A stretch of DNA of 64,000 nt from Giardia intestinalis (lineage: Eukaryota), in the NCBI GenBank assembly GCA_000002435.2, contig CM018790.1; one strand, 5' to 3'. The position numbers and the translations under genes were made by a program. The notes beneath the pieces are model-generated. The model did no database searches and was not told the origin of the DNA. It saw nothing but the letters and a program-made list of their open reading frames with translations. Each line of letters starts with the position of its first letter. Position 1 is the first letter of the stretch. Positions 31,201 through 51,304 of the stretch are shown here, one piece after another.

Positions 31201-34200
31201 CGCGAAATAGATGATCTTCGTCGGGAGCTCGACGCGCTTCGCAGGGCGGCTCCCGTCGAGCCTCTTGCGGCTGCAGCCCCGGCCGACGACGACCTTCTCC
31301 GGTCGCTGCGCGCAGACAACGAGATGCTGATGGAGGATGTCCATGATAAGCGCCAAGACATCAAGGTTCTGGAGCGCAAGCTTCTTCAGGCCAAGGACGT
31401 CATCGAGGATCTCAAGGACGCGCTCGTCCGCGTCGAGCCCGCCGAGCTGACGGCCATTGCAGACGGCGACGCGGAGGACATCGGCCGCCTCCAGGACCTC
31501 CTCGAGAACATGAAGCAGCGCGAGAAGGAGCTCAACCGCTTCTACACCGACCTGCTGAAGCAGACCCAGCCGGCACAGGCACCAGAGCCCCTCACCCAGG
31601 CAGACTTCGAGCGGATCCTCTCCGAGAAGGACGCCGAGCTCGAGCGCCTCCGCACGCTCCTCGACCATCCCCCGGTTGAGCAGCCCGTAGACGACTCCCA
31701 GAAGTACCGGGACGCGATCGGCTTCCTCAAGGAGGAGCTTGCCTACAAGGACCATGAGATCCGCCGCATGAGGGCTGACAGCGCGCCCTCCGAGGTCGCG
31801 CAGATCGTTGACGCCTCCCTCAAGCAGGCCCTGGCACAGAAAGAGGAAGAGGTGGCGCGCCTCAAGAGCGCCCTGGAGGATCTCGCCTCGGACCACATCG
31901 GCCAGAAGACCGGCGAGCCCGACACAGCCGCTCTCAAGGCCCTGCAGCAGGAGATCAGCACAAAGGACGACGAGATCCAGAAGCTCACCGCTGTCATCGC
32001 TGCCATGCCGCGCACCCATGAGCCGCAGGACATCACTGACGCCGCAGAGCTGGTGCGCATCCTTGAGTCCAACCTCGAGAGGGAGAAGGATGACACGGCT
32101 GCTCTTCGCGACGCCCTGCGCAACGCAGAGGAGAAGAACAATGAGCAGCTTCGCGAAATAGATGATCTTCGTCGGGAGCTCGACGCGCTTCGCAGGGCGG
32201 CTCCCGTCGAGCCTCTTGCGGCTGCAGCCCCGGCCGACGACGACCTTCTCCGGTCGCTGCGCGCAGACAACGAGATGCTGATGGAGGATGTCCATGATAA
32301 GCGCCAAGACATCAAGGTTCTGGAGCGCAAGCTTCTTCAGGCCAAGGACGTCATCGAGGATCTCAAGGACGCGCTCGTCCGCGTCGAGCCCGCCGAGCTG
32401 ACGGCCATTGCAGACGGCGACGCGGAGGACATCGGCCGCCTCCAGGACCTCCTCGAGAACATGAAGCAGCGCGAGAAGGAGCTCAACCGCTTCTACACCG
32501 ACCTGCTGAAGCAGACCCAGCCGGCACAGGCACCAGAGCCCCTCACCCAGGCAGACTTCGAGCGGATCCTCTCCGAGAAGGACGCCGAGCTCGAGCGCCT
32601 CCGCACGCTCCTCGACCATCCCCCGGTTGAGCAGCCCGTAGACGACTCCCAGAAGTACCGGGACGCGATCGGCTTCCTCAAGGAGGAGCTTGCCTACAAG
32701 GACCATGAGATCCGCCGCATGAGGGCTGACAGCGCGCCCTCCGAGGTCGCGCAGATCGTTGACGCCTCCCTCAAGCAGGCCCTGGCACAGAAAGAGGAAG
32801 AGGTGGCGCGCCTCAAGAGCGCCCTGGAGGATCTCGCCTCGGACCACATCGGCCAGAAGACCGGCGAGCCCGACACAGCCGCTCTCAAGGCCCTGCAGCA
32901 GGAGATCAGCACAAAGGACGACGAGATCCAGAAGCTCACCGCTGTCATCGCTGCCATGCCGCGCACCCATGAGCCGCAGGACATCACTGACGCCGCAGAG
33001 CTGGTGCGCATCCTTGAGTCCAACCTCGAGAGGGAGAAGGATGACACGGCTGCTCTTCGCGACGCCCTGCGCAACGCAGAGGAGAAGAACAATGAGCAGC
33101 TTCGCGAAATAGATGATCTTCGTCGGGAGCTCGACGCGCTTCGCAGGGCGGCTCCCGTCGAGCCTCTTGCGGCTGCAGCCCCGGCCGACGACGACCTTCT
33201 CCGGTCGCTGCGCGCAGACAACGAGATGCTGATGGAGGATGTCCATGATAAGCGCCAAGACATCAAGGTTCTGGAGCGCAAGCTTCTTCAGGCCAAGGAC
33301 GTCATCGAGGATCTCAAGGACGCGCTCGTCCGCGTCGAGCCCGCCGAGCTGACGGCCATTGCAGACGGCGACGCGGAGGACATCGGCCGCCTCCAGGACC
33401 TCCTCGAGAACATGAAGCAGCGCGAGAAGGAGCTCAACCGCTTCTACACCGACCTGCTGAAGCAGACCCAGCCGGCACAGGCACCAGAGCCCCTCACCCA
33501 GGCAGACTTCGAGCGGATCCTCTCCGAGAAGGACGCCGAGCTCGAGCGCCTCCGCATCCTGACTTCAGATAATGCCACCTTTTTCAGGAAGAAGCTGGCA
33601 GCCAAGGACGCGGAGATAAGAAGGCTTATGTCGGCTGCATCTCAGCCAGATGAGGCGTCACATGGAACAGAGTACGATGTTGCCGTATTGCAGAGTGCTT
33701 TGACTGTGGCTGACGACATCATCAATGATAAGACGCGAGAAACTGAAGAACTCCAGAAGCTCCTTGATGACTTACAAGAAAAGCTTCGAGATGTGGATGA
33801 GAATAAGCTTTATGAAACCATCGACATGCTTAGGAACGATGTTGACCGTTTAGAAAGATGTCTCAACGAGCGTACTAAGGAACTGAACTCATTCAAATCT
33901 GCGATGCCTCATGATAATGTTCTTGCCAATGCAGTGCAGAGAGAGAAGGAGATCGAAAGGTTCTACAGAAACCTCATTGATAGCAAAGACGTTATGATTA
34001 ACCAGCTTAAAGCTCTTCTGTCTGCCGACACTGACGATCTCCTAAGGGCTCTTCGAATGGACAATCAGACTCTGGCTGAGGACGTGCGAGACAAGGCCAA
34101 CAGTCTGCAAGATACTACAAGAAAACTCCGAGATGCCATGAACACCATTGACAGGCTTCAGTCTGAACTAGCTCATGCACGTACTGATGAACTGGACGAC

Positions 34201-34985: not shown

Positions 34986-35747
34986 TCAGTTTACGCTTTC
35001 TATGGTGGGGCGCGTGTTAGGGGCTCTGCTCATTGTGTATGCAACCCTCTCTGCTTGTTCGTCAATGATTGCTGGCCCGCGAGGAAGAACCTCGTTGGAG
35101 CTATTCTTCACCGTCCCGGCCCCAGTAATGATAGCCATTACACGCGCCTCGATGTCCTGCATGCTCAAATCTGTGCAGTCAATGACACGGATACAGTACT
35201 CGAATACCTTGAAGTACGCTGGTCGGTTTATTTTGTAGACATCGTAGCGCTTCTTCAGTTGATCACGCTCCAGCTCACTTGCAGATCGGGAAAGCACTGT
35301 GTCCAGCGGAAGCTGAAGGTCTATTACCACCGTGGGCAGACAATCTGGGCTGATACGCAACGAAAAGGCCTCCAGCTCAGAGGAGGGAAAGTCATCTAGG
35401 ACCCAAGAATCGTTTGAGCACTGCTGGAGCTGGGTTCGAACGGACTCGATAACCTCTGTGCTTCCTAGAGTCTGGTTATTCCGTTCAGCGCAGATCAAGC
35501 GGCCCCCAAGCCTCTTCGACAAAAGGCTGCACATCGTGCTCTTTCCAGAGCATGGCGGGCCCAGTATAATGACTCTGTGCGTTGTCTTGCAGGTTGTCTT
35601 CGCAGGATCAAAGTAATTCTTCAAAAATCCGCATGGGTTGTCAGGCTTATGTATGGCGAGGGCCTCCATCGCTTGCTGGAGCTTGATGTAGATCTGCCGC
35701 TCCTCTAGATATTCGACGATAGCGTCATCTGTAATTTTGGCAGCCAT
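34986..35747 (-). CDS. Adenylate/nucleoside-monophosphate kinase-like P-loop protein with an N-terminal Dpy-30/RIIa-like docking motif
   Basis: 'VIILGPPCSGKSTMCSLL' is an AK-type P-loop and 'WVLDDFPSSELEA' resembles the NMP-binding 'GFLIDGFPR..QA'. The N-terminal 'AIVEYLEERQIYIKLQQAMEALAIHKPDNPCGFLKNYF' fits the Dpy-30 motif found in flagellar adenylate kinases (AK7-like). Confidence 0.5.
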   Translation of the reverse strand: MAAKITDDAIVEYLEERQIYIKLQQAMEALAIHKPDNPCGFLKNYFDPAKTTCKTTHRVIILGPPCSGKSTMCSLLSKRLGGRLICAERNNQTLGSTEVIESVRTQLQQCSNDSWVLDDFPSSELEAFSLRISPDCLPTVVIDLQLPLDTVLSRSASELERDQLKKRYDVYKINRPAYFKVFEYCIRVIDCTDLSMQDIEARVMAIITGAGTVKNSSNEVLPRGPAIIDEQAERVAYTMSRAPNTRPTIESVN

Positions 35748-35850
35748 TTTTGTTTTCTGTCAACTTCTCCCTGTACAGCGGGCAATACTCGGTGCCTCAG
35801 AAAAAAGCACCCGCACAGTTTACAAGACTCAAACAGGTGGTAGAAGAATG

Positions 35851-36111
35851 TCAATCATCCGCATTGTTCTTGGCCTCTAGACGCATCCTTAACTCAGCGT
35901 TTTCCTTCTTTAGCTCATTGATCTGATTTGTAAGACTAACAATACGGTCTTCGCCAGAGCATCCAAGGTATTGTGCAATGTACTCCAACGCATTTGGTGG
36001 CTTCTCGGCCTCTTCATAAAGAGCCACAAACGCCTTTGTAATAGCGTCAGACACGCCGGTCCTTTGAAGGAAGCGACGGAATTCTGCGCGGCGTAGATCA
36101 GTGTCAGACAT
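35851..36111 (-). CDS. c-Myc-binding protein (MYCBP/AMY-1) homolog, a small coiled-coil protein
   Basis: The 86-aa protein 'RRAEFRRFLQRTGVSDAITKAFVALYEEAEKPPNALEYIAQYLG' aligns closely with metazoan MYCBP 'KREQFRRYLEKSGVLDTLTKVLVALYEEPEKPNSALDFLKHHLG'. A C-terminal coiled coil follows. MYCBP orthologs are ciliary central-apparatus components in Chlamydomonas (FAP174). Confidence 0.6.
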   Translation of the reverse strand: MSDTDLRRAEFRRFLQRTGVSDAITKAFVALYEEAEKPPNALEYIAQYLGCSGEDRIVSLTNQINELKKENAELRMRLEAKNNADD

Positions 36112-36157
36112 TTTAAAAATATTTTAGATTCCAGGCCCACGCACCAAGATCACTCGC

Positions 36158-39100
36158 TCAACGATTCGATAGATGGACATAAATGCCGTTTAGTGTTACC
36201 ATCTCATCTACCTCTTTGCTATAAGCAGACATCTTGACATGCATGACCTCTATGCCAGCTACCCGTGACTCTCTAAGTTGGTCCACATAGAATGGAACTA
36301 TTGCAGACGAGGAGAGGTGCGCCTCGTTGTCAGCCGAGTACACATAAATATTCTCCAGTTGGTCGCTTTCCACATTCAAATCGATGAGGGTCCGCAACGA
36401 ACAGCCCTGAAGAACACAGCTTCCAGCCTTAAGCGTTATTACTGGATGAGCACGCTTATTGCAAGCTTGAGATGAGGCGACCAACTTGATACTATTGAGC
36501 TCTTGGCCCATAGCTATGCCTTCATATCTACGAATAGCCTCAATGAATGCGGCGGGTCGTGGCATGTCTGACAGAGCGAGTTCGATCTGCGTCATGGTAC
36601 TTGACTCATTGACACTCTGTCTGCAAGACTCATATGCGCTGGCTATGCTCGAGGATGCGCTTGTCAAAAAGGTACTCAAGTACTCGAAGGGATCGCCACT
36701 GCGAAGAGTAGCTAGCTCAGGAGAGTCGTGTGGTGCTGTTGGGCAGGGCACAGCAGTTATTCCCACGCACCATCGTTCTGGTAGAATTCTACTCAGGATA
36801 AGAGAGGCAATGGCCTTGATCCGTGTGCTGGCAAGGAGATAATTGCTATGCGCCGCAGCTGCTTCCTTGAAGTCGCTTTCCAGGACCTTTCCGATTGACA
36901 TTATCACATTCCCTTGTAGATGAAGCTCATCAATAATCGGAATAATCCGCGCAATAGCTGGATCTGTTTGTTGAGCTTCGTTCAGAAAGGCTCCCATCTC
37001 CTTAAGTTTAGTGGCAAACACAGTCAGCTTGGGCTTAACGTCTTTCTCATAGATAGATGACAGTTGTAAAATTGTGTCATATATGCTGGCGATCGCGTTC
37101 CCGTCTGATGCACTTTCCTGAGTACCACTCTGTATACTTATTCGTGCCAACAGCGACCTAGTTGTTATGCTATTCTTTAAGCTCTGAGTTAGGAGGGCAT
37201 TGGTGGGCAATCCAAGATAGTTTGGAACAGGTTTCTCGGGATAACACTGCTGCACGTAGAGCGCGATTCCGTCAATTAACTGTGCTGCATCGAAGCAGCT
37301 GCTACCTGCCAAGAGACTTTTGTTACAAAGAACATGTGCAGGCGGAAGTAAGTATTGGATAACGGGAATGCTGTTAATAGCAGAAACTATATCGCGCGCT
37401 CCATACGATTGAGCATTGCCTTCAACTGAAACAGTGGCTGGAATAGCTTTTTCTCCCTTATCAATAAGCTCAAATATCGCCGTTATCGCCTTGCTATTAT
37501 AGGATATCTTAGTAAACTCCAACAACAAAGCATTGTCTGAGGAGTCCTTCGTGGCTACACCATATATTGCATCGAGTAGCAAGCCACTCAGCCGCTTTGA
37601 GAATCCGAGTAAGTAAACATTTTCGTCCTGGCTTGCTGGAAGCCCGCGAACCATACAGTCCTGAATAATGGAAATGATAGCCGTAAGGTCGTTCTGAGAC
37701 CAGCCCGGGTCTAGCGCAACACCGCGGGGGGCATAGAGGCGGCGGGCGTCCAGGATGATATGGAGTGCAGTGGAGATGTAGAGCAGGGCGTAAAGCTTTC
37801 TAATAAAGCTCTCTGTTTTGTTCTGTGAAGGGACGGTTGTTGGCCATCTCCGAACAGCATCCAGGAAGGCTTCTTTGGGAGAGCTATCAACTACCAGACA
37901 TACGCGCCACCCGACCCGGCCTAAACTCTGAGGAATGTATGGCTTTGGCTCGAGAAGAAGAACAATCTTCACGTGAGAGAGCAACTCTTCGTTATATTTC
38001 AGTTTGAAGCTAACCGAGCTCTCCATGAGCCAGCTGGGGAGAACAGAGAGCCAGTTGGCGCAGAGGTGGGCACCTTTTATAACAATCGTATGCATAACCG
38101 CAGAACTCATGGTGTCAATAGATTGCTCGCTTTTCCATGATTCGTATCTTCCCCCGAGATCTTCTAGTACGGTTTCAATAGCTTTGTTGGCCGCTTTTTC
38201 TTGGCCGGGATTTATGGTTATGGGGGTAGAGTTGGGGATGGTACTTGTAGGGTCCTGGCCTTGCAGCGTGTACAAAATGACAGGCTGGAGAAAACCGGCA
38301 GAGTGCCGTATAGCAGCAGCAATACTGTCCAGAAATTGCAGCTCCTTAGCATAATCATTCTTGAGGAGGGTCCTACTCACTGCGAGCTGTAAAGCAGTGG
38401 AAATCAGGTCCTTTCGACACGCAGAGACAAGAGCTGCCATTTCAACGTAAGTTAAGCGTCCTGCTGCATCTGGGAAAAGTTGGTTTATGTCGTTAAGGTT
38501 GTTGCACACCTTCACCTTGGCAGGAAAGTTGCTCCAGACAGAGCTGTTTGTAATGGAAATAGTAGACAGACGTGCCGAAGAAAAGCATGACAGGACCAAT
38601 CGAAACTCTTGTGTAAGGTTGGCGGGAACCCAGGTGGGAACAGATATAGAGGCATTAGAGTCAGCACGCCCTGTAAAGTACTTGAAGAGACTATCCGTGA
38701 AAATATCGGGGCAATAATTGCGCAATAAAAGAGCAGAAGCGGCGACCACATCGCTTGAGAACACGGATGTCTGGAGCCTGAGTAGAGTGTCTGAACGGAA
38801 CTGTTGTTGAGTTGCAAGAACTAGATCTGCAGTGATCTCCGACGGATTAGCAGTCGAGGGCTTATTACTTTGTAAGGCTTTAATCAGCAGCGGCATCACT
38901 GAACACTGATCTCCGATATATAAGCTATTTGCCGGTTGTAATGAAGAAAATGTTGAGACACAAGTGTCCATGTCTCTTGCCAATGGAAGAATGCGCTCTT
39001 TTACAGCATCAAGCTCCTTTTGAATGGTTTCAACCCCTTCTTGTGCTTTTTGTATTTCGAGTGTTTGCTGCTCTGCTTGCTTGAGCACGTTCATAAGAGT

Positions 39101-42100
39101 CACATTATCAATTATTGACAATGACTCTGAAGTTGTGGCAGAGTCGGTTGCAGCACTCAGGGCCGTGAGAAGGTTCTGCTCTACTTTGAAGAGTTGCTCG
39201 TTGAACGCCAGCTGAGAGTCCCTCAACTCCTCTATTTTCTTTAAGCTTTCTGGAGACCACTCAGCTAGAATACGATCAGTGTACAGATTAGCCTGAGACT
39301 TTCGTGTGGGTGCATAGGATAGTATCAGAACATGCTGAGAAAGATCTGACGGCACAAACACATCCAAAGACGAAACCAGAATCATGCGGAACGATGGAGA
39401 CACTTCACTGAACTTGAAGGATTGGACTGGCATGATGGTTGTTGCTGTCGAGAGAAGGTAAGACGTATTCACGTACCCGGTTCCTGCAGGTGTGTCTGCT
39501 GCTGCACTCTCAGAGGCTCTATATCCACCTCCAGAATATCTTATGTATGGGAATAGAACAGAGGGAATAGACCCACTGTCGCAGTTTAGGACGACAATTG
39601 TTTTGCCAAACCTGGCTGCAATACTAACAAGATTCGCTAGATTCTCCGAGGCAGCACTTACAAAAGTGGTTCCCTCCACAGAGACGTCTTGGTTCTTCGT
39701 TTGGTCGAAATAGTTACGTAAAAATGTGAGAACTCCTGTGGCTTCGGTGACATGAGAAAGCACTATGGTTGTGATTAGATTATAATTCCTCATGTCACGC
39801 ATGTCACGAGCGTCATCGTCAGCGGCACCTCGAGGGGCACTGTTTCGCGGAAGCTTGCTACTACTGTATAGCATGTCAAAAATGGCCGTATTCTCCAACG
39901 AACTAGTTGATGCAACAAGCCCATAACTAACATATCTATTCACGGTAACAGAATCATAAAGTAACGCGCCAAAGGCAGCTCTGACGGTCAGTCCTTTATC
40001 ATCATCTTTTGCCGATACAGGGCTCCCGAAAAAGCTCTCACGCATGTCATCTGTGCTGGCACCAGCTACTACGAACAGAATGGCTGCATTAACGGCACAC
40101 TTGTCGATAATATCTAGCTGCTGACTTGCTTGCTTGTACCCCTCTTCCCAGCGCAGCTTCTCTGCCCGGAGCCCGTGGAGCATCTCTTGGCCCTTCCGCT
40201 GCTTGGCTTGAATCTGCTGTAGCTCCTGCTTATACTTGACAAGCTGCTCTGTTTTCGCATTGAAGTCATCGCGGAGGCCTGCTATCTGAGCCTCTATGGC
40301 AGCGACCTCATCATTAATCGTTTGAATCTCTTTACGCATACTATCGAGGCTTCTGTTGGCGCTTTCCACGGCCTTCATCAGAGGCTCCATCTTAGTGCAC
40401 ACCTCGGCGTATTTGATATTGGCCTGAATCCACTTGGCAAGCGGTGCTGCTGCCCTGGACACGCGGCGGATGCGCTCCTGCTCAAAGCAGTCGGCGTTGT
40501 TCCTCACAACCTTGTTCACGGCATGTATGGATGCTTTGCTGGCCGTCTTCATGTCAAAGTTCGCAATTGTGCGGAGAACGCCAGACTGTGAAAGAAACGC
40601 CTTCATGCCCTTCCACGAGAGATCCTGGTGACCAAGCAGCACCAGGACTGCCTCCAGGACTACAGATACTGCAGGAGGCGGAGATTGGAAGGACTTGATC
40701 TCAGTAAGGGCGTCTGACGGGATCGCCTGGACGGCCTTTGTTGCCTCTTGAAGGACGGGCATAACAGTGCTTAGCTCGGCATCTGCTTGCTCCTTGTCCT
40801 TCATGATTCCCTGCTCTCTCTCGCTCAGTTCCTTCTGCAGAGCGTGAGCGGCCAGCTTCCTGTCGTTTGCTTCTGACATACGGCTTGAGATGTTTTCTAG
40901 CGCCTGGTTTGCCTCTTTCTGGGAAAACTCCACCTGTTTTGTGCGTTCCTGCGCCTGGGCAGCCAGAGCATCGACCTCGCTCTGCGCCTTCTGTAGCTGC
41001 TTCAGCCCCTTGGACAGGCGCTCACGCTTCCTATTTAGCATGAACGTCCACCTAGACTTGAGGAGATGGTAGATGACATAGATTTTGGTGTAGTATGATA
41101 TCTGGACGGTATTGTGTGGCTTGTAGACAGACAGGTACTTACTTACGTATCCCGATGCAATCTTCAGTATCTGCTCGATCGTGTTGAGCGGCTTGAGGTT
41201 CCTACCTTCATTCGAAGCCATAGAGGCGCCAGAAATGATCGAAACAGTTTTTGTAGGCAGCGTATGAGCAATACTTCTTATGGGTGCCTTCAGAATATCG
41301 TCGGTAGTGCTTAACTGAATAGAGGAGGAGTCGAGGTAGAGCAGTTCAAAACTGACCAACTGTATGTTGCGACGCAGGGCGGGAACGAGGGAGAAGATGC
41401 CGTCGGTGCTCCTGCGCTCTGGGTTCAGCAAGATGACAGGCTGAACGGCTCGCACAAACAGGTTCAGAAAGAGCGTAGCCAACTCTGACTCAGACATAGA
41501 GTCGCCGTTCGGCACGCTTGACACCTCGGTAAACGTAGCAACCAAGCTCCTAAGATCTGCAGCAGAAAGTCGATTTCGGAAGTAGAGGATGTCACGGCTC
41601 GACAGCGCAGAAAGCAGGGCGTACCATTCTGGGTCTGCTTCCAAGGTGTTGCAGTCCATGAAGTAAGCAATGTGATGGTGGCCATGGGCAACCCTGTCGG
41701 CCAGGAAGCGCAGTACAAGAGGAGTAGCGTGGTCAGTGCCTGCAAACATGACCGTGCACCCTATACTTAGCGCCCCTGCAAGGGCAGTCTCCATTGAGAA
41801 ATTGTGTGGCTGAGATAAGATAATAACACCTGCCGAAGACCTAAGGAAAATCTCCACAGCAGAGAGAAGCTTCAAGTATTCGTGGATGACGGTATCAATG
41901 AGTGGGGGACTCCACTGCATCATGTTCAGATAGGCATAATAGAGGCGAAGGCCGTTGTAGGTGTCTCCAAGAGAGGATACAAGCTCTTTAAGCAGGCCGA
42001 TCCGCATCTTATTTGTGACTAGCTCTAGGGAGAGGTCGGAAAAATAGGCGTCGGGTATGCCTTCATCAGACTGCAATGCGCGCTGGAGCGTCTGCGCTGT

Positions 42101-45100
42101 CGTCCCAAGCTTGGCATAGGTTAAAACCTTCTCGTCCGAAACTTGGCTTATTGTCTTGAGACACGCGCGTGCTGCCGACTTACCCTGGGAATAGGGGATT
42201 GGTACCTCAAGGAAGATCTCCAGCAGCTTTGTTATCTTTTCCAAACTCACTTCGGACTTCTCGGTGGCAAGCAACGCCTTGATCGACGATATGGAAAACA
42301 AGGTGAGAGACCCCACTGATTTCAGGAGCTCTGGTAGAGCGATCACCTCTTGCAGATTCATGGTCCTAGTTTTGAGCTTTGCTGTCTCTGCTTCGGAAAC
42401 CATTCGCATCTGCCAAGTCTGAAGGCTAGTGGAGGCCTTCATTAAGGAGGAGTACAGCTTAAATAGGTCAGGGCCGCACACAAGCTCAGCGTCTCGGGGA
42501 TCTTCGTCCATGAAAACGATCCCCATTCTACGCCGCAAGCGGGCGGGGATCGCGTCCAGTGTCTTTGTGGTAAGTGCTACTTGAATGTCGGAGATATGAA
42601 GACAGGTGCCGCCCCTAGTATAGAACTTCCCGTGGGCCACCAGGGACCAGAGGAACGTGAGCGTCTCGATATGGGCGAACTCATCCGGAGCAACTATGTC
42701 GCAATCCCGCAGGATCAGCAGGATTTTTGTGCTGACGCTCCGAGGCTTTAGGTATCTATTCCCGTCTGCACCCTGCGTCTCGGCGCACTCTGATAAGAGC
42801 AGGTCTACTATACTCTGACGCGTGGTTAGCTGGGAACAGTCAAGTGTTAAGGCCTTATATCTCTGCCCTCTGCTGTTAGTGGTCTCTGCCACTGCTTGAA
42901 GAAGAGCCGTGTACTTCCCACATGTCTTTGAGCCCGTAACGATTATCTGTACTCCAGCTGTCAGAAAGTTCCTGACGGACAAGACGGCCCAGTGGAAGTG
43001 GGGGGCCTGGCCCGAATCCCCGTGCTTCGGCGTTGCCAATGTCCCGCGAAGATCGATGCTTCTGCCAGCAAGAACCGACGCAGCAGAACCCAGAGTGAGC
43101 TCGTTGAGTTCACCAGGGAGGCCTGCAGCCAGACAGATCTTCATCTCGGAGAAAAACGAACGTATGCACCCCGCAACGAAAGCAGTCTGAAGGTCCGATC
43201 CACTGTTCGCCATAAGAGCCGCACCCACTCCAGAATGGAACATGTGTGTACAGACGTCGATGGCAGCTGTGCCTCTCTTCATGGACGCAGGCAGACCGGT
43301 TCTAAAAAACGCCTCGAAGCCGGCAAGACTTAGCTTGCCAGACAGATCCGTGTTAGTGTCAAGCTGATAGCGTAAATGTGCGAGTGTGTCGTCAATGGAC
43401 GTATCCGGAACAACAATGATGGCAAGACGACTGATCGTAGCAGGTGACGCATGAGCAAGCGAGTCTGTCTCAAAAAGGAACGACAAAGGCATTTGCAACG
43501 GAGCAGATAGCCTCCCGTCTACTTCTCGTGAGTTGAAGTACGCCTCCAGTGGGTTCATATTTACCGGGAAGCGGAGCCGCTCGCCGGAGCTCATTGTGAG
43601 GAGCCGGTTATCGTCCAAGACGGAATTCAAGGCCTCTATCCAAAGAGGGTCGATCGATCCATCCAGCATAATAATCGGCCACGTACATGGAAGCTCTCTG
43701 CTGTTCAACAGCTGAACAGAGAGACGGGCAGCGCTAGATAAGGCACCATCGTTCCACTCGCCGGTTGCAGGATCGACATAACCAAGAAGCTCCTGGCGAG
43801 ACATCGACTTGGGGGCAATGAGAAACTCTTGGATGACAATATTTCCCTTGGTAAGCTTGAAGACTGCGTCCTTCAGCAGAGAAAAGATGTACGACTTACC
43901 GCTTCCGGTGCCTCCAAGAAGTGCTACGCCCATCTTTGTAGTAAGTGCTCTGTAGAGCTGCAACACCGCAATGCCGTGCGGCTCACGTAGATCTGGAGGA
44001 AGAGCGCCAACCAGCTCTTCTTCGAGACTGCTCACGGCCCCAAACTTCTTTATGGTGGACTCTGATTGCTTAATAGCCCTGGATCCGAAAACGCCGGTCA
44101 GGATCTCCTTGAAGATTTCAACCGACTTCCCTGTAATGCGAGAAAGAGTTGCGTCTGAGATGCACTTAATTATGACGTTACTTTCCATGCCATACAGCGC
44201 TTCAGCGCTTGAGTCGGAAAGCATCTTGAATGAGGAAGCGCGTACTATTGCTGCCTGACGCAAGATAGCCTGTAAGCTACGAAGACCCCAGTCCAGATGA
44301 ACTTGTTTCGGAATTCGACGAGCGCACAGGACATATGAAAGGTCGCATTTCTCCGCTAGCTCCTTGCAATTGACAAAGCCGGATGTGGAGAGAATCGTCT
44401 CGATGATAAGGCTGGTGTCTGCTCTGCCCATGAAGCACCCGCGCAAGAGCTTGGTCAACGAAAAGGGGAGCTCAGAGCGGCCACGGTACTCGCGCGATGC
44501 AGGATTCATTGTGACGTAGATCGAGGCATAGGGAGATATGGCCCGTATAGGAACGGTGATCTCAGAAAGAGTAAAGGTGTTCTCATCGAGGTTTATGTTC
44601 CGACAATCCCCGAATGCACAGAGGCTTGTTTTTCCAGAGCGGAGGAGGATCACTTTTTGGATTGCCTCGATGTCTGTAGCAACGGCGCTCAGCACTGAGC
44701 TATCCAAGCGATTGATTTCATCAAAGCAGCCCATGGACCCCGAGAGAATTATCCCTATGAGAAGCCTGGATAAATCTGACCGCTCGATGGATGTATCACA
44801 GTTGAAGCACACGACGGTGCGGCCAAGCTTTCCTCCAAGCGCCTTCGTGGACTCTGTTTTCCCCGTCCCAGCAGGGCCCTGGAGGACACCTCCAAGCTGA
44901 AGTGCAATAGCCTCTGATATCGTATTGTAGCAGCGAAAAGTTAGAGGCGTGTGAATGAGTTTCGCTTGGAGGCCCTGGTAGTCATAGGAGTATGGCGTTA
45001 TGGAGTCTAGCGCAAAGACATACAAGTCATCGGAGTCTTTGTGTATGCGATACTTAAGTTCTCTGGTCCAGATCCACCGCCGTGAGTCAAAGCAATCTGG

Positions 45101-48100
45101 CGCCGACTCGTCCACGGCAAGGAGAGACCCTAAGACGTTGAGATACTGATAGATATCGACAAGGAGGCCCTTTATCTTTAGTCCCAGGAGAAACTCGGGG
45201 GTTCCAAAGTTCGCTAGCGCAATCTTAGCCTCGAAGAGCTTGCTGGAAAACTTAGAAAGATACTGGTCGACACGACTCTTGCAGGCGGCCAGGGCCTGGG
45301 TCGATGCGGTGGCGTCCTTCACCTGGTAAAGGGCATAGTCAATCTGCGCAGTCATCATGACGGCGAAAGAGATGCAGAGCATTTCTCCGGAGAGCGCGCT
45401 GATGGGAAGGGACTCAGAGATTGCCGCTTGGAAGTCTTTGAAGCCATAGAAGTCCTTGTCAGAGTAGCTATATGGAGACACCGATGCCTGCACCGAAACA
45501 CACGAGGTGATAATATCAAAAGGCGAGGCTTCCGAAAGCGCAGATTGAACCATCGAGGCGTTGCTCTGTGCGGGGAACACAAGCTCATTAATAGGGAGCG
45601 AGGCAATAGGCTTGAGGCAGCCGTCGCCCCGAATCTTCAAGGCCTTCAAAAGCTGGTTGCGAAGAGTTTCTCTATGGGCGGTATCGAAACGATTCAGCCA
45701 GAGCTCCGGCTGGTCTGTAGGCAATATGGAGACTGCGGTGGATAAACTAATGTGCTCACCCTCCGAAGAAACAAAACCCTTTATGAAGTTCTGCTTTTGT
45801 CCAGTTGCCATAACCAGTGGCTCTCCAAAGACCAACGTTTCAATGGCAGAAAAGAGCTTTTTGATGTGCGGGCGGAGGGTCTCTTCTGGCTTGGCGCTTC
45901 CAGTGGAAAGGATCTCGAGCACATCCGAGTCTGCCAGGAAGTAGAACCGGGGAAACAAAATGCGCTTTTGCTCCAGGTACTTGCGCAAGCTAGTTTGAAT
46001 GTCGGCAAGGAGACAGCTGACAAGCTCAATGGTGACAATGACGTCCTTATAGAGCCCAAGGAATGCATTGTCTGCGGTAGAAGGTGAGAGCCCAGCGGCA
46101 TGTGATTGCAAGGCCCCAGCAGAGTAGGGAACCGGGGCCTTAATAATGCTGATGAGTGACAGAGTAACACCGCGAGAATGCGGAAGTTGGGCAGATGATG
46201 GGTCCTGCTCGCTGGGTGCAGAAAATGAAGACCCACAGCATGCCACCTCAACTAGTTCGTCGCAGTCGGCTAAGAGAATGCTGTACAAAACACGCAGGCT
46301 GTCGTAGAACTTCTTCTCCTCTGCAACAAGCACCCTTCGCCCCATTACAGGCTCCAGAATACTTATCTGCTTGGCTATTGTGACCATGACATGACCCAGG
46401 CGCGTGTAGCTATCAATTATGGCGGTGCAGTCGTCGATCTGGTTCTTCAGTGACTTGGAATATGGATTGGTCGAAACAGCCATGATTATTGCTCTTTTCT
46501 CGACCAGCTGCGAAAAGAGGTGCTTCCAGACCGCAGACAGAGGGATCAGTGTTAGACCCGTCTTCTTGTTCAGACCAAGCTCAACCGAGCACAGCTCCTC
46601 TTGCGCCAAAGGCGTTAGCTCGTGGAGGGCAAAGAGGAGCTTTGCCTCCGATGCAAGCCAGTAGGAGGTCTCCTCGACCGCCGCTCGAATGCTGGTCTCA
46701 TTTTCGGCACGAACACATACCTCACGAATTATGCTTATGGTCTTCTTGTACTCCGTTGTTTGAGGATTCTCTGCGGAGATATTTCCTCGGTTTGTAAACA
46801 AGCAAACTGCGGCTAGGAAAAGAACCTGGCACCCATTCATGGTGTCCACAATTGAGGCTGCGACAGTATCGGCCTTCAAGGCAAAGTACTTTATTATGGA
46901 GCCAAGATTGGTCTTTTCGATGATCTCACGGTAATGGGCTTGGGTCAAGGAGTTGCTACGGAGGGCTTTGAATACACTTAGTGACTGGCTAAACAATGCC
47001 GCCACAAAGGTGAGGTAGAGAGTCGCGGCCTGCTTCAAGCTGCTGATGGACTCAAGCGTCAATGCACTCCCTCGCAGGTCCACAGCCCCTAGGAGGTCGG
47101 AGATATCTGTTATCTCAGAAAGGAACTTCTCCCGGCATGCCAGGGCCTTTGTCTGGATAAAGTCTGCCATGTCAAGTCTATTTTTGACGATGCTCCACTC
47201 CAGCCGCATGAATGCAGAGCACCCCGCCTCCAGTTCAACTAGTATGGGAAGAAAGCCAGAAAACGCGTCCTTGAAGGCAGAAATTATTGCAACGCTGTTC
47301 TTGAGCTGCTTAGCGCTTTCCGTGGGAAGCATGGACATGTAGTCGACGTTGAAGATGGAGAGAGCCTCGGACGAGAGGGTTTGCATAGTGGCAAGTATCT
47401 CGGCCACGTTCTGGCGGACCTCATCGAAGAGCAACGAGTAAGCACACGCCGCTTTTCCGCCATAGATGACTCCATTTTCTGCGTCGGTCCTGGTGAAAAA
47501 GAGCACTTTGAAGAAGGAATTAAACTCAGCAAGATCGGCAGGAGCACGCACGCTAGTGTTTGCATCGCAGTAGGCGGTGAACTCCTGAATGCCCGCAGTT
47601 AGCTGCGCCAGAACATCCTTGGACTTGCTCAGGAGAGAGGCCTCGCCGCTGCCGGCTAGCTTGTCCACTAAAATGTCCCAGAACTCCTTCTTCTTCGCCT
47701 CCAGCTCTGACTCGATGTTGTTCAGCCTGTTAGACAAAGAGAGAAATGAGGCGTCTGCGGCGTCAATGAGAGAGAGCACATTTTCATAGAAGGCGCTAGA
47801 AAGCAGGATAACAGCCTTAAATCCCAGCATCTCCTCGTGCACTTTCTTCAACTTACCTTTCAGCAGGGTATGGGCGTCCTGGAAGAAGGCCGTGAAGTCT
47901 GTGAAGTCATCAGAGCTGGCAAAAGCCCCGTGAATAGCGTCGCAACGCTTCGTGAAGCCAGAGCACTCCGTGCTTATCTTGTCGGCTGCCTGCTCAGCAA
48001 AGTAGCTCGCCGCGGCTACGGCGACGTCTAGGATGGCTGCAGGCTTCTTATTCACGAGGCGGATTGCATGCTCTATGTTAACCGTGATCACCCCGTTGGA

Positions 48101-50479
48101 AGGAGACACGTTGTAGATGTGCTTCTCTGACCCTGGCTGCGGGATCAGAAAAGGCAGGTTGGCAAGAAGAAGATCCTCGGGCTGGCTTACTTGTGACATG
48201 TAAGATTGACTCAGGTCTGCCAGCCGTTTGCAGTTTTCTAGAGTCTGGAGTCTTTCTGCACAGGCCTTCGGGTTTTGGGCGCCAGAAAGCAGGACCAGCG
48301 CGCATTCTCTTTGGATAAAAGCCTCCATTTGGTGGAGGTGCGCGGCTATCTTGCTGATATTCACCAAAGCCCCCGGAAGCGTGTTAACGGATAACGCGCG
48401 CATGTCGCTGATGAGTTTCACTAGCGCGGGGTCATCCGACAGGTGGAAGTTCGAGTTGGCAGGAAGGTCCACGACAGACATTAGCTGCCTGAGCAAATAT
48501 TCCTTGACACTGTCTGGAGAGAGGGTGAGAGCACCGGTTGTCTGGTTGATTCCGATCGGGGTGGGCAAGGGGGTTAGCAGAGAAAGGTCAGAAGACAGCG
48601 CGCCACAATACTTGGCTGCAAGTACCTTCGCCACGCATCCAGTCCAATACTGCACAACCGTGAAACCGCACGGCTCCGGTAAGTTGGCAATGAAGCCCGA
48701 GATGAGGTTTTTCAGAGAAGACATTGCCTCGGTCCAGCGCAACTGCCCAGAGATCAGGGACACTCTGGATATAGACACGAGGATATCCATACCCTTCTTG
48801 TGGAAGTCGTCTAGTTTTCCCAGGCTCTCCTTAAACCGGGCATGGATCTTCCGGATGTGCTCACTAATCTTAGCAAAACGAGGTACAGGGTTAGAGGGAT
48901 CCTGCGAGCTCTCGGCAGATGCAATGTCACATGTGATCTGCTGGAACGGCTGGATGTTTGATTGTTGGATTGCCTTCTGTAACTCCGTGTCATAGACCTG
49001 AGCGGCTTTAAGAATGGTGGGCTTTTGATACGGACGGATGATCTGAGAAAGTTCGTTGTAGAAGGCTGCCGCGCTCTGCAAAGTAGCGACATAGGGCGTG
49101 AGATAGGTGACGAGCTGCATGCAAGAAACAACCTCCGCGGGAAGCGCAAGCTTCTGCGGATCATACCCCAGGCCAGAAAGGAAAGTGACGAGGGCGTGGA
49201 CACCCAGCATCTTCTCAGGAAACTGGGCCACCATGTGCTTTTCCTTATTCATGTAAAGAAGCAGAATGCAATTAGGCTGCGCAGACATGGTTGAAAACCC
49301 GTTTCCAGGAGACTCGGCAAAGAGCGCGATGGATCCTTGTATGGACTTCATATATGCAGAGAGCAGCTGTCGGGCACTACGCACCGCGTCCTCTTCTGCA
49401 GTCTTGAAAAACTCAACACTCGACTGGACAGACGAGGAGAAACTTGCCAGGCTAGATACATCGGCTCCGCAGAGATCCTCCATGAATGGAAGGAGATTGG
49501 TGCTACAGGCGTTTAGGATCGATCTAGTCTGTCTTATCGTATTCAGCCTCACCATAGTGTCTGCATGGGTCCCCTCACTTAGAGAACCAAGGGTATTCCT
49601 CGCGCTGGCCATCATGTCATTAAAGGACTGGATTATGTTGGCGACGATAGTGCTGTTTGCGGGCCGCAGTGCGTCCCTGATCGACGGGCGCTTAAAGAGA
49701 AAAGAGATCTCCGGAAATATGAAAAAGTGAGAACCAAGTGTATTCGGGTTCACAGAAGAAAGGAGCGCTAATATCTTCGTGGCAACGGGGCCTTCAAGCT
49801 TCTCCAGCCTTTTATCAAAGTCTTGCAGGATGGCAGTCAAGGTCTCTGTATGCGAGAAGAATGTGTCTGGAATAAAAAGGGACTCTAGCGCCGGTTGCTC
49901 TTCGGGCAGGAGCTTGTTGATCGCGCTCACGGTACCGTGGAGAGCGTTAAGTCCGTCGACTCTGGCCTGAATGTCTTGAATGTCCGCATCCAGGCCCGCA
50001 TCACTGACAAAGGATTGAAACGCCGGGTCACTGAAGAACAGAACTGATTGCTCGATGAGAGTAGCGCTTTGACTCAGCAAGGAGCCTGCGAAGACAGACC
50101 CCAAATAGGTCCGCAGTCCTCGGACAAGCTGCGGGGCAAAGACACGCCGCAGGAAGTCGGCCTTTCGTGCATAGGGCGGGTCCAGAGCCGAGAGAGAATT
50201 GGAGGCCTCAGTGGCGGCTGGGAGGGAGGTCAGAGGCGTCTTGCAGGCCTCTTCCATGATCTTAAGAGTCCGCAGTATTAACTGTGCTCGCTCGCCGGCA
50301 AAACCCGGCTGTTTGCTCAGGTTCGTGTAGAGACGATACTCGCTCTGAAAGGAGACCGGAGACCCGTCAGACTCCGATGTCGGCACCCTTTCGGCTTGTT
50401 CCAGGAAAGCCATGATCTCCTCGTCAGGCTCCTGGCCGCCTGCACGAACTTGGGAAAGATACTTCGAGAGAAGATCCAT
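36158..50479 (-). CDS. Dynein heavy chain (4773 aa); the AAA1 region is most similar to cytoplasmic dynein-1 heavy chain
   Basis: Single ATG ORF. AAA1 reads '[98 protein letters not shown]'. This tracks human DYNC1H1 'TPLTDRCYLTMTQAL...[43 protein letters not shown]...[26 protein letters not shown]' better than axonemal 'GTGKTETTKDLAKALAK'. AAA2 has the P-loop 'GGTGSGKS'. A tail of about 1950 aa precedes AAA1. The total length fits the family. Confidence 0.85.
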   Translation of the reverse strand: [4773 protein letters not shown]

Positions 50480-51304
50480 GGTATTTTTTAGGGAATTTTG
50501 CCTATGCCTCTTTCGGCTGGCTCTGTGGTAAGATCGCTCAGCCTAGTGGCAAGCGGGGAGCCACAAGGTAAAGAAAGGTAGGTGCGGGATGCTCTGGTAG
50601 CCCTAATGTTGAGGACGGAAGCGTTGCAGGGCTTGCTTGCAAGAAAGATCGAGTAGCAGCTCTGCTCTAGTGGGACACATGTTATGGCATGCTAAAGGCT
50701 GAATTCAATAAACCGATCATCGTGTGTACTGATGGTGGTTTGTATGTAAGTATATGCAAACTGCGGTTCACTATAGAAGTCAGCGCGTGGAAGCATCTAG
50801 AACGCGATCCGATGTTTCAATACGGTTCGCTCCAGACTGAATCAATGTCCCCCTTAATCACTGAACGAATTCCATACCGCAGGCGTGCCGTTGCCTCCCA
50901 GTTTCTACTGGGTCTTATGCTGTTCACCTTCGGAGTAAACTCGGAAATGCCATGATCTAGGCAGCTGACTGTCGAAATACCTGAATGAAAGCCCTTGTGT
51001 TCTTCGAGCGAGACCGACGCTGCAACACAATGAGATGCTTAGTGCGTGTTGTAAGGCTCCACTCTGACAGTAGGAGCTGCTGTGATAAGTACAGACCCTC
51101 GGGCAGCTGTCAGGCCTCTAGGTAACAGCGAGCGACCAAATGTTGGCGGATGGACATCCGCTGCTGCCTTGTCGACTCCTCGTCGGTATAGGGGAGATGG
51201 ACCGATCGGGTGACCCATAGGAGCGGCCAGGTCGCAACGGCGAGTGTACCAATCGTGTGCTTCTCAATCGGTTAAATAATCTCTTTGTTTTGCTATCCAG
51301 GGTT

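What the first reader, a model, noticed from the sequence alone, without database searches (positions are those of the whole stretch)
34986..50479. Three consecutive minus-strand genes with cilium-linked domain signatures: Dpy-30-motif adenylate kinase, MYCBP/AMY-1 homolog, dynein heavy chain
The Dpy-30 docking motif and MYCBP are partners of AKAP/RIIa-type scaffolds in the flagellar central apparatus of other organisms (established for Chlamydomonas FAP174). A Dpy-30-tagged adenylate kinase is a classic flagellar ATP-regeneration enzyme. They sit back-to-back with a 14.3-kb dynein heavy chain whose motor domain looks cytoplasmic-dynein-1-like. These eukaryotes have no operons, so adjacency is not evidence of co-regulation. 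Still, the tiny MYCBP gene is easy to miss in annotation. The pair of docking-domain proteins suggests a conserved AKAP-anchoring module in diplomonad axonemes.
Basis: partly seen in the sequence, partly recalled or inferred. Interest (0 to 1): 0.5.

Follow-up and report, generated by a model that had tools for sequence, protein, structure and literature searches.

The report
Three Giardia flagellar genes, reclassified
Three neighbouring Giardia genes encode a very divergent heavy chain closest to dynein-2 (the intraflagellar-transport motor), a MYCBP/FAP174 homologue and an AK8-like docking-domain protein with a decayed adenylate-kinase domain; all three are already annotated, and the one new point is that the last two stay neighbours in distant relatives.

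Summary
The three minus-strand ORFs are real and sit exactly at the stated coordinates. The window is Giardia intestinalis of assemblage-A type. The 253-aa and 86-aa proteins fall in the clusters of GL50803_7009 ("adenylate kinase family protein") and GL50803_7007 ("hypothetical protein"), so both are already annotated. GL50803_7009 was localised to all flagella in a 2026 atlas.

- **86-aa protein:** a clear MYCBP/FAP174 homologue.
- **253-aa protein:** it has a genuine RIIa/Dpy-30-superfamily docking domain, closest to that of AK8. Its kinase domain lacks about 20 residues of the AMP-binding domain and the Arg of DGFPR, and orthologues elsewhere have also lost the P-loop Lys. The docking domain and a family-specific C-terminal motif are better conserved than the kinase core. 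It is therefore more likely a docked structural or nucleotide-binding subunit than an ATP-regenerating enzyme.
- **Heavy chain:** it is not dynein-1-like. Tail, AAA1 and stalk all match DYNC2H1 best, although margins are modest and the protein is very divergent.
- **Adjacency:** the dynein gene is adjacent only in G. duodenalis. The MYCBP and AK-like genes are adjacent in five further loci, with changed orientation and unrelated flanks, which suggests functional coupling.

Overall these are ordinary members of known families, with one modestly new observation.

The parts
34986..35747 (-). 253-aa AK8-like protein: N-terminal D/D docking domain, degenerate adenylate-kinase-like P-loop domain and a conserved C-terminal motif. 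Orthologue of GL50803_7009.
   Evidence: ORF. Pfam. Best solved-structure match is AK8 9fqr_G8, E 2.8e-15. 99% identical to the representative of the XP_001705882 cluster. Foldseek on a low-confidence model hits AK5 and AK8.
35607..35720 (-). D/D (RIIa/Dpy-30-type) docking domain, residues 10-47 (YLEERQIYIKLQQAMEALAIHKPDNPCGFLKNYF).
   Evidence: Profile A4 against PDB: AK8 3e-10, PKA RI-alpha D/D 1.2e-7, EFCAB10 6e-6, FAP385 1.8e-5, DPY30 8e-5. Pfam Dpy-30 scores 23.1 bits (cut-off 22) on the N-terminal 56 aa.
35535..35561 (-). P-loop GPPCSGKST (residues 63-71, Lys69 retained).
   Evidence: Alignments. The Lys is lost in the L008 protein (GPPGAGAGR), P0094 (GAGTGP) and P0096 (GVGQD).
35382..35396 (-). 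DDFPS (residues 118-122) in place of the adenylate-kinase DGFPR motif, so the catalytic Arg is Ser. Just upstream of it, about 20 residues of the AMP-binding domain are missing.
   Evidence: Alignments with E. coli Adk, human AK1, P0099, P0101 and an AK8-like domain.
34989..35105 (-). C-terminal family-specific motif NEVLPRGPAIID...YTMSRAPNTRPTIESVN (residues 215-253).
   Evidence: More conserved than the kinase core. Among the 150 best library hits it is found only in the six orthologues. No PDB relative.
35748..35850 (-). 103-bp spacer between the MYCBP and AK-like genes. It holds a GTAAAC poly(A)-like signal for MYCBP and an A-rich initiator (AGAAAACAAAAATG) for the AK-like gene.
   Evidence: Sequence read. 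Reading these as the Giardia promoter and poly(A) consensus is from my own knowledge.
35851..36111 (-). 86-aa MYCBP/FAP174 orthologue (GL50803_7007): N-terminal RII-like helix-turn-helix plus a C-terminal coiled coil.
   Evidence: 7som_T at E 5.8e-9 (single sequence) and 4.7e-11 (profile). UniRef names relatives 'c-Myc-binding protein'. The first 32 residues are almost invariant among diplomonad-type homologues.
36112..36157 (-). 46-bp spacer between the DHC stop and the MYCBP start. It holds AGTGATC just after the DHC stop and an AAAATATTTTTAAAATG initiator.
   Evidence: Sequence read.
36158..50479 (-). 4773-aa dynein heavy chain, very divergent and closest to cytoplasmic dynein-2 (DYNC2H1/DHC1b, the IFT dynein).
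43892..44992 (-). AAA1 module (Pfam AAA_6, residues 1830-2196) with the canonical Walker A GPAGTGKT at residue 1868.
   Evidence: (246 bits).
40115..41023 (-). Stalk and microtubule-binding domain (Pfam MT, residues 3153-3455).
   Evidence: In this region DYNC2H1 is again the best PDB match.

Best explanation
The region holds three separately transcribed Giardia intestinalis genes for axoneme-related proteins.

1. **Heavy chain.** A highly divergent dynein heavy chain descended from cytoplasmic dynein-2. It is most likely the retrograde intraflagellar-transport motor.
2. **86-aa protein.** The MYCBP/FAP174 orthologue. It is a small dimerisation/docking (D/D) protein that, by homology, clamps amphipathic helices of scaffold proteins in the central apparatus.
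3. **253-aa protein.** An AK8-related protein made of a D/D domain, one adenylate-kinase-like domain and a family-specific C-terminal motif. The kinase domain has lost most of its AMP-binding domain and the Arg of DGFPR, but in Giardia it keeps the ATP-side P-loop Lys and the lid Args. I infer that it acts mainly as a docked structural, or at most ATP-binding, subunit of the axoneme. It would be anchored through its D/D domain to an amphipathic helix, as AK8 is anchored on radial-spoke protein RSPH3B. It is unlikely to be a true ATP + AMP = 2 ADP enzyme.

Adjacency of the dynein gene is a G. duodenalis accident. The MYCBP/AK-like neighbourhood is conserved: tandem in Giardia, head-to-head with a shared short promoter region in three other loci. 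The most likely reason is co-expression. A further possibility is physical pairing of the two D/D domains, like the EFCAB10-AK8 heterodimer of mammals.

**Shown here:** the homologies, the loss of catalytic residues, the conserved linkage, and flagellar localisation of the WB orthologue (from the literature).
**Inferred:** loss of kinase activity, the docking site, co-regulation and heterodimerisation.
For: **Gene identity:**

**MYCBP:**. FAP174/MYCBP is a D/D protein of the central apparatus (PMC4901443, PMC13345628, PMC8175508).

**AK-like protein**
- The D/D profile hits AK8, RI-alpha, EFCAB10 and DPY30.
- The nearest relatives outside the family, among 1.84 billion representatives, are mostly 400-500-aa proteins that match from the D/D domain onwards. 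The three that were scanned have two ADK domains, which is the AK8 architecture.
- Motif losses are shown.
- The Pfam ADK score falls along the family: P0099 129, P0097 46, G. muris 34, G. intestinalis 25, P0094 20 bits.
- The D/D domain and C-terminal motif are more conserved than the core: 60/42/65% against G. muris and 42/23/50% against L008.
- GL50803_7009 is flagellar.
- AK8 and EFCAB10 pair through their D/D domains and dock on RSPH3B (PMC12541429).

**Conserved pair**
- G. muris: tandem, 3-bp gap.
- L007: head-to-head, 48 bp.
- L008: head-to-head, 246 bp.
- L013: head-to-head, 266 bp.
- The flanking genes of L007 and L008 are unrelated to those of Giardia.

**Heavy chain**
- DYNC2H1 is the best match for the full length, the C-terminal half and the tail.
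- The tail matches only dynein-2-type fragments (P0016 is confirmed as DYNC2H1).
- The neighbour-joining tree puts it with the dynein-2 clade in 72% of bootstraps and with dynein-1 in 0%.
- Giardia has an IFT dynein and no DHC1 according to PMC6992383 and PMC5100056.
Against: - No enzyme assay exists. Giardia keeps the P-loop Lys and three lid Args, so some nucleotide turnover, or a non-canonical kinase activity, cannot be excluded.
- In other organisms AK8 sits on radial spokes and MYCBP in the central apparatus. Homology therefore predicts two different complexes rather than one module.
- The pair is not linked in Spironucleus salmonicida or in the alternative-code genome GCA_963988835.2.
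- The dynein-2 assignment has modest margins. AAA1 class profiles give 358 (dynein-2), 348 (axonemal) and 331 (dynein-1) bits, whereas true members win by more than 150 bits. The tail hit to DYNC2H1 is only E 0.012. AAA3 and AAA4 lack canonical P-loops.
- Wickstead & Gull flagged two Giardia heavy chains as unstable in trees, and Kollmar mentions 'orphan' diplomonad dyneins. I could not compare this gene with the other Giardia heavy chains.
- The AlphaFold model is of low confidence (pLDDT 59).
Confidence: 0.68

Rival explanations
1. The 253-aa protein is an active, Dpy-30-anchored flagellar adenylate kinase that regenerates ATP. Together with MYCBP it forms an AKAP-anchored module in the central apparatus, and it lies next to a cytoplasmic-dynein-1-type motor.
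For: - P-loop Lys and lid Args are retained, and the fold is an adenylate-kinase fold.
- A D/D domain is present.
- The WB orthologue is flagellar.
- FAP174 is found near kinase-domain proteins in C1b of Chlamydomonas and Tetrahymena.
Against: - The AMP-binding domain is truncated by about 20 residues and the Arg of DGFPR is Ser or Ala in Giardia.
- Orthologues lose the P-loop Lys while keeping the D/D domain and the C-terminal motif.
- Pfam ADK is below its cut-off.
- The closest homologue, AK8, is a radial-spoke protein, not a central-apparatus protein.
- The heavy chain scores best with dynein-2 in every region and joins dynein-1 in 0 of 200 bootstraps.
- Giardia is reported to lack DHC1.
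Confidence: 0.12
2. The identities given above are right, but the MYCBP/AK-like adjacency is only a neutral remnant of ancestral gene order. The two proteins work in different complexes (central apparatus and radial spoke) and do not interact.
For: - By homology MYCBP belongs to C2a/C1b and AK8 to the radial spoke.
- The linkage is lost in Spironucleus and in GCA_963988835.2.
- G. duodenalis and G. muris still share the next gene on one side, so part of the conservation is plain synteny.
- In the window each gene has its own initiator and poly(A)-like signal.
Against: - The pair is kept in L007, L008 and L013. In L007 and L008 the flanking genes compared are unrelated to Giardia's, and one gene has been inverted relative to the other.
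- Spacers are tiny or shared: 3 bp in G. muris and 48 bp head-to-head in L007.
- Both proteins carry the same kind of dimerising domain, and a mammalian precedent exists for an AK8 D/D domain pairing with a small D/D protein.
Confidence: 0.4
3. The heavy chain is not the IFT motor. It is a lineage-specific 'orphan' dynein, a fast-evolving paralogue with a new, possibly axonemal or cytoplasmic-axoneme, role. Its resemblance to dynein-2 is residual or comes from long-branch effects.
For: - Margins in class-profile scoring are very small.
- Bootstrap support is only 72%.
- There are no Pfam hits to DHC_N1, AAA_8 or Dynein_C, and the AAA3 and AAA4 P-loops are degenerate.
- The literature notes unstable or orphan Giardia and diplomonad heavy chains.
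Against: - Four separate regions (tail, AAA1, stalk, whole protein) independently rank dynein-2 first.
- The tail hits only dynein-2 in the whole PDB.
- Giardia performs retrograde IFT and is said to encode an IFT dynein.
Confidence: 0.2

Closest known systems
Adenylate kinase 8 (AK8), a mammalian radial-spoke protein (PDB 9fqr chain G8)
   Same: N-terminal D/D domain directly followed by an adenylate-kinase-fold P-loop domain. AK8 is the best sequence match in the PDB (E 2.8e-15; D/D profile 3e-10). It is also the second-best structural hit, just behind AK5. The protein is axonemal (GL50803_7009 is flagellar).
   Different: It has one kinase-like domain instead of two. About 20 residues of the AMP-binding domain are missing and the Arg of DGFPR is replaced. 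It has an extra conserved C-terminal motif that is absent from AK8-like proteins. Its docking partner is unknown.
MYCBP (AMY-1) / Chlamydomonas FAP174, a central-apparatus D/D protein
   Same: Similar size (86 against 93 aa) and the same layout of an N-terminal RII-like helix-turn-helix followed by a C-terminal coiled coil. The alignment runs end to end, with E 4.7e-11.
   Different: Nothing notable in the sequence. Localisation and the AKAP partner in Giardia are untested. The gene is linked to the AK-like gene in the Giardia lineage; I did not examine other groups for such linkage.
Cytoplasmic dynein-2 heavy chain (DYNC2H1 / DHC1b), the retrograde IFT motor
   Same: Best match over the whole length, the C-terminal half and the tail. 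It groups with dynein-2 fragments in the tree. Walker A motifs of AAA1 and AAA2 are canonical.
   Different: It is extremely divergent, at about 29-35% identity in the best-conserved part. It is about 460 residues longer than human DYNC2H1 (about 4,300 aa, from memory). The Walker A of AAA3 is degenerate and none was found for AAA4. Several Pfam dynein modules are not detected.
EFCAB10-AK8 D/D heterodimer docked on RSPH3B (mouse radial spoke)
   Same: It offers a precedent for a D/D-tagged adenylate kinase being paired with, and anchored by, a small D/D protein (PMC12541429). The Giardia locus encodes one protein of each kind side by side.
   Different: The small partner here would be MYCBP, not EFCAB10. 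No interaction has been tested, and MYCBP is a central-apparatus protein elsewhere.

Membership tests
MYCBP / FAP174 | Significant full-length sequence similarity to a bona fide member | tested here: met
   7som_T (93-aa central-apparatus chain) at E 5.8e-9 as a single sequence and 4.7e-11 as a profile, covering residues 7-79. UniRef names the homologues c-Myc-binding protein. The chain label in the PDB table does not say FAP174; I infer that from its length and the entry.
MYCBP / FAP174 | N-terminal RII-like D/D helix-turn-helix followed by a C-terminal coiled coil | tested here: met
   Weak Dpy-30 hits over residues 4-49 (E about 0.3). Coiled-coil-type hits over residues 54-83. The layout matches that described for FAP174 (PMC4901443).
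MYCBP / FAP174 | Binds an AKAP amphipathic helix and localises to the central apparatus | not testable with these tools
   GL50803_7007 is not in the localisation atlas.
Adenylate kinase (EC 2.7.4.3) | P-loop GxxGxGK | tested here: met
   GPPCSGKST, Lys69. The Lys is lost in the orthologues from L008, P0094 and P0096.
Adenylate kinase (EC 2.7.4.3) | AMP-binding (NMPbind) domain with its Arg (E. coli R36) | tested here: not met
   A gap of about 20 residues relative to E. coli Adk, AK1, P0099, P0101 and AK8-like domain 1.
Adenylate kinase (EC 2.7.4.3) | DGFPR motif with the catalytic Arg (E. coli R88) | tested here: not met
   DDFPS in G. duodenalis, DGFPA in G. muris, EGFPL in L008.
Adenylate kinase (EC 2.7.4.3) | Lid-region Arg and Asp residues | tested here: inconclusive
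   R153, R186, D189 and R201 (alignment A1 numbering, one less than the full protein) are aligned and invariant. The lid is short and its alignment shifts.
Adenylate kinase (EC 2.7.4.3) | Pfam ADK at or above its gathering score | tested here: not met
   25.1 bits against cut-off 26.8. The fold is nonetheless AK-like (on a low-confidence model).
RIIa / Dpy-30 D/D domain superfamily | Sequence match to D/D domain models or structures | tested here: met
   Pfam Dpy-30 scores 23.1 bits (cut-off 22) on residues 1-56, against 19.4 on the whole protein. Profile hits to AK8, RI-alpha, EFCAB10, FAP385 and DPY30.
RIIa / Dpy-30 D/D domain superfamily | Dimerises and binds an amphipathic helix | not testable with these tools
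   No multimer prediction or binding assay was available.
AK8 | N-terminal D/D domain followed by two adenylate-kinase domains | tested here: not met
   The D/D domain and the first domain are present. There is no second kinase domain, since the protein ends after the C-terminal motif. It is AK8-related, not an AK8 orthologue in architecture.
Cytoplasmic dynein-2 heavy chain | Closer to DYNC2H1 than to any other class, in the motor and in the tail | tested here: met
   548 against 451 against at most 377 bits. C-terminal half 182 against 149 against 127. The tail hits only DYNC2H1 and dynein-2-type fragments.
Cytoplasmic dynein-2 heavy chain | Monophyly with dynein-2 in a phylogeny | tested here: inconclusive
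   Neighbour-joining on AAA1 gives 72% bootstrap with the dynein-2 fragments. The class-profile margin is only 10-27 bits. Other Giardia heavy chains were not available for comparison.
Cytoplasmic dynein-2 heavy chain | Drives retrograde IFT and associates with dynein-2-specific subunits | not testable with these tools
   The only support is the literature statement that Giardia encodes an IFT dynein (PMC6992383).
Cytoplasmic dynein-1 heavy chain | Closest class is DYNC1H1, or it groups with the dynein-1 clade | tested here: not met
   It ranks second in the PDB scores and has the lowest class-profile score. It joins dynein-1 in 0 of 200 bootstraps. Kollmar 2016 reports no DHC1 in Giardia.

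The most novel reading that the evidence does not exclude
In the Giardia lineage the MYCBP/FAP174 orthologue and the AK8-like pseudo-kinase may be obligate partners. Their D/D domains would form a heterodimer, the counterpart of mammalian EFCAB10-AK8, that docks a catalytically decayed kinase module onto an axonemal amphipathic helix. Selection for stoichiometric co-expression would then explain why the two genes have stayed adjacent through inversions and flank turnover. This would be a case of an axonemal enzyme turning into a structural subunit while its anchoring system is preserved.
Probability: 0.25. Interest if true: 0.5.

Novelty: new member of a known kind. Interest (0 to 1): 0.3.

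Why it matters
The finding corrects the dynein class. This is the candidate retrograde IFT motor of an organism reported to lack cytoplasmic dynein-1, which bears on how Giardia builds eight flagella with long cytoplasmic axonemes.

It also warns against reading the 'adenylate kinase' annotation of GL50803_7009 as an energy-homeostasis enzyme.

Finally, it gives a cheap, testable hypothesis: a conserved gene pair of two D/D-domain proteins, for which an interaction or co-dependence experiment in Giardia would be easy. None of this changes general understanding of cilia.

Tried and rejected
- **Exact look-up of the three window proteins:** not in the collection. Identity was obtained later through cluster members.
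- **Full-length DHC homologue search:** it timed out. The repeat with residues 1480-2700 returned only fragments of at most about 2,100 aa and no Giardia heavy chain, so I could not compare Giardia paralogues.
- **Kollmar 2016 supplements:** not held. The class he gave this gene is therefore unknown.
- **C-terminal motif as the AK8 inter-domain linker (S-x-A-P...):** rejected. The motif profile finds nothing in the PDB and finds only the six orthologues among the 150 best library hits.
- **AlphaFold model of the 253-aa protein:** low confidence (pLDDT 59, D/D domain about 50). I used it only for a coarse fold check.
- **Fused-chain heterodimer prediction:** not attempted.
- **Contigs for P0096 and P0099:** not on record.
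- **Literature searches for the gene identifiers:** nothing found.
- **The idea that the small gene is unannotated:** rejected.
- **Operon-like co-transcription in the window:** not supported, because each gene has its own A/T-rich initiator and poly(A)-like signal.
Full report
**Observation**

The three ORFs exist exactly as described: 34986-35747 (253 aa), 35851-36111 (86 aa) and 36158-50479 (4773 aa), all on the minus strand (translations).

The window is Giardia intestinalis/duodenalis of assemblage-A type.
- The 253-aa protein is 99% identical to the representative of a cluster that contains XP_001705882/A8BNB8, 'adenylate kinase family protein'. It is 88% identical to the assemblage-B protein.
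- The 86-aa protein is 98% identical to the representative of the cluster that contains XP_001705881/A8BNB7, 'hypothetical protein GL50803_007007'.
- Assemblage-A-type metagenome contigs show the same layout of a 4773-aa DHC, an 86-aa gene and a 253-aa gene.

So the genes are real and already annotated.

**The 86-aa protein**

Pfam has no family for it. It aligns end to end with the 93-aa Chlamydomonas central-apparatus chain 7som_T, at E 5.8e-9 as a single sequence and 4.7e-11 with a profile of ten diplomonad-type homologues. Databases call its relatives c-Myc-binding protein.

FAP174/MYCBP is a D/D (RII-like) protein that binds AKAP240. It sits in the C2a projection and probably also near C1b (PMC4901443, PMC13345628, PMC8175508). 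MYCBP homology is therefore supported.

**The 253-aa protein: docking domain and relatives**

On the whole protein the Pfam scores are borderline: ADK 25.1 against cut-off 26.8, Dpy-30 19.4 against 22, and RIIa 16.6. Several other results make the docking domain secure.
- The best solved relative is AK8 (9fqr_G8, E 2.8e-15), and the alignment begins in the N-terminal docking region.
- The N-terminal 56 residues alone pass the Dpy-30 threshold at 23.1 bits.
- A profile of this region from 15 homologues hits AK8 (3e-10), the PKA RI-alpha D/D domain (1.2e-7), EFCAB10 (6e-6), FAP385 and DPY30 (8e-5).

The docking domain is thus genuine. It is best described as an AK8-type member of the RIIa/Dpy-30 superfamily.

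A profile search of 1.84 billion representatives found only five full-length relatives outside G. duodenalis. These are G. muris P0093, P0014 (locus L007), P0094 (L013, close to L008), P0096, and P0097 from an alternative-code genome. After them come many proteins of 400-500 aa that match from the D/D domain onwards. The three I scanned have two ADK domains, which is the AK8 architecture.

**The 253-aa protein: decay of the kinase domain**

Alignment with E. coli Adk, human AK1 and canonical D/D-tagged kinases (P0099, P0101) shows three things.
- The Giardia protein lacks about 20 residues of the AMP-binding domain.
- It has DDFPS where the kinases have DGFPR.
- It keeps the P-loop Lys and the lid Args.

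Orthologues go further. The L008 protein has GPPGAGAGR, P0094 has GAGTGP and P0096 has GVGQD, so all three have lost the P-loop Lys. P0099 is fully canonical yet carries the same C-terminal motif.

The Pfam ADK score falls along the family: 129, 46, 34, 25 and 20 bits. The D/D domain and the C-terminal motif (E-[VI]-[LIV]-P-R-G ... [ST]-R-[AV]-P-N-T) are more conserved than the kinase core: 60/42/65% against G. muris and 42/23/50% against L008. This is the opposite of what an enzyme under selection for catalysis shows.

I therefore read the protein as a docked structural, or at most ATP-binding, subunit and not as an ATP-regenerating kinase. That reading is an inference and needs an assay.

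Its WB orthologue GL50803_7009 localises to all four flagellar pairs (PMC13322205 supplement). In mouse, the D/D domain of AK8 pairs with the D/D domain of EFCAB10, which fastens AK8 to RSPH3B on the radial spoke (PMC12541429). Foldseek also recovers AK8 from the bovine 96-nm repeat and AK7 from mouse RS3.

**The heavy chain**

Pfam confirms a dynein heavy chain but misses DHC_N1, AAA_8 and Dynein_C. Human DYNC2H1 ranks first against solved structures in every comparison.

| Region queried | DYNC2H1 | DYNC1H1 | Best axonemal |
|---|---|---|---|
| Whole protein | 548 bits | 451 bits | 377 bits |
| C-terminal half | 182 bits | 149 bits | 127 bits |
| Tail (residues 1-1480) | only hit, E 0.012 | no hit | no hit |

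Further results point the same way.
- The best named hit in the large protein database is DYNC2H1 of Ixodes.
- The tail matches only fragments carrying DHC_N1. The best of these, P0016 (E 1.4e-8, collinear), is itself DYNC2H1.
- A neighbour-joining tree of AAA1 places the Giardia protein with the dynein-2 fragments in 72% of 200 bootstraps. It never places it with the dynein-1 clade.

There are reasons for caution.
- Class-profile scoring of AAA1 gives only a 10-27-bit preference: 358.5 (dynein-2), 348.1 (axonemal) and 331.4 (dynein-1). True members win by more than 150 bits.
- AAA3 has a degenerate Walker A and none was found for AAA4.
- Wickstead & Gull reported unstable placement of two Giardia heavy chains and credited Giardia with a dynein-1.
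- Kollmar 2016 denies that dynein-1 and mentions orphan diplomonad dyneins.

A divergent dynein-2 is the best reading, at about 75-80% in my estimate. Because I could not obtain the other Giardia heavy chains, an 'orphan' status remains possible.

**Adjacency**

In the window each gene has its own A/T-rich initiator next to the ATG and an AGT[AG]A-type signal after the stop. The three genes are therefore separate transcription units.

The dynein gene is adjacent only in G. duodenalis-type loci. In G. muris an EGF-repeat gene lies there instead.

The MYCBP/AK-like pair behaves differently.

| Locus | Arrangement | Spacer |
|---|---|---|
| Window (assemblage-A type) | tandem | 103 bp |
| Other G. 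duodenalis-type contigs (L004-L006) | tandem | 136 bp |
| G. muris (L001) | tandem | 3 bp |
| L007 | head-to-head | 48 bp between the ATGs |
| L008 | head-to-head | 246 bp |
| L013 | head-to-head | 266 bp |

The other neighbours in L007 and L008 have no homologues around the Giardia pair. G. duodenalis and G. muris share only the large convergent gene downstream. The pair is split in Spironucleus salmonicida and in GCA_963988835.2.

Retention through inversion and flank turnover suggests selection for co-expression. Both proteins carry dimerising D/D domains, and AK8 is known to pair with a small D/D protein. A heterodimer is therefore an attractive but untested idea (probability about 0.25). 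The plain alternative is that the linkage is a relic and that the proteins serve different complexes, the radial spoke and the central apparatus.

**Verdict**

The three proteins are members of known families in an already annotated locus. The modestly new points are:
- the decayed kinase domain of the AK8-like protein;
- the conserved MYCBP/AK-like gene pair;
- the correction of the dynein class.

Noticed in passing
window 36158-50479 (-), residues 1868, 2189, 2516: Only AAA1 (GPAGTGKT) and AAA2 (GGTGSGKS) of the heavy chain have a canonical Walker A. AAA3 reads GSKTCGKY, and no P-loop was found where AAA4 should be. Pfam does not detect DHC_N1, AAA_8 or Dynein_C.
   Followed up: partly
window 25246-34926 (+): A 3226-aa ORF in a region of up to 64% G+C, with no Pfam family above cut-off. 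It is convergent with the AK-like gene and syntenic with a 2335-aa G. muris gene. Its called length is 1958 aa and 432 aa in two other assemblage-A-type contigs (L012, L011). It may be repeat-rich and collapsed in short-read assemblies; I did not test this.
   Followed up: partly
L003 (Spironucleus salmonicida CM035320.1) 557-2571 and 10723-12737: The MYCBP gene lies inside a mirror-image duplication. The same three gene sizes and domains (80 aa, Myb 152 aa, 306 aa) occur in inverted order on both sides.
   Followed up: no
L001 (G. muris) 9995-10262: Extreme compaction. The upstream gene stops 2 bp before the MYCBP ATG, and the MYCBP stop is 3 bp before the AK-like ATG (TAAAAAATG). The promoter and poly(A) signals must therefore lie inside neighbouring coding sequence, or the genes are co-transcribed.
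   Followed up: partly
window 51257-52945 (+): A protein kinase with five ankyrin-repeat blocks, which looks like a Giardia NEK-type kinase from my own knowledge. It is weakly similar to a G. muris kinase found on the other side of the G. muris locus.
   Followed up: no
L007 10001-10237: The gene call for the AK-like protein in this Logan contig (347 aa) carries a spurious 79-residue N-terminal extension. The extension overlaps the uncalled MYCBP gene on the opposite strand (10189 to 9935).
   Followed up: yes
P0099 (296 aa, source organism unknown): The only family member with a fully canonical long-type adenylate kinase (GKGT, GTMLR, DGFPR, lid) together with the D/D domain and the C-terminal E-V-V-P-R-G motif. 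It probably shows the ancestral, active form of the family.
   Followed up: partly
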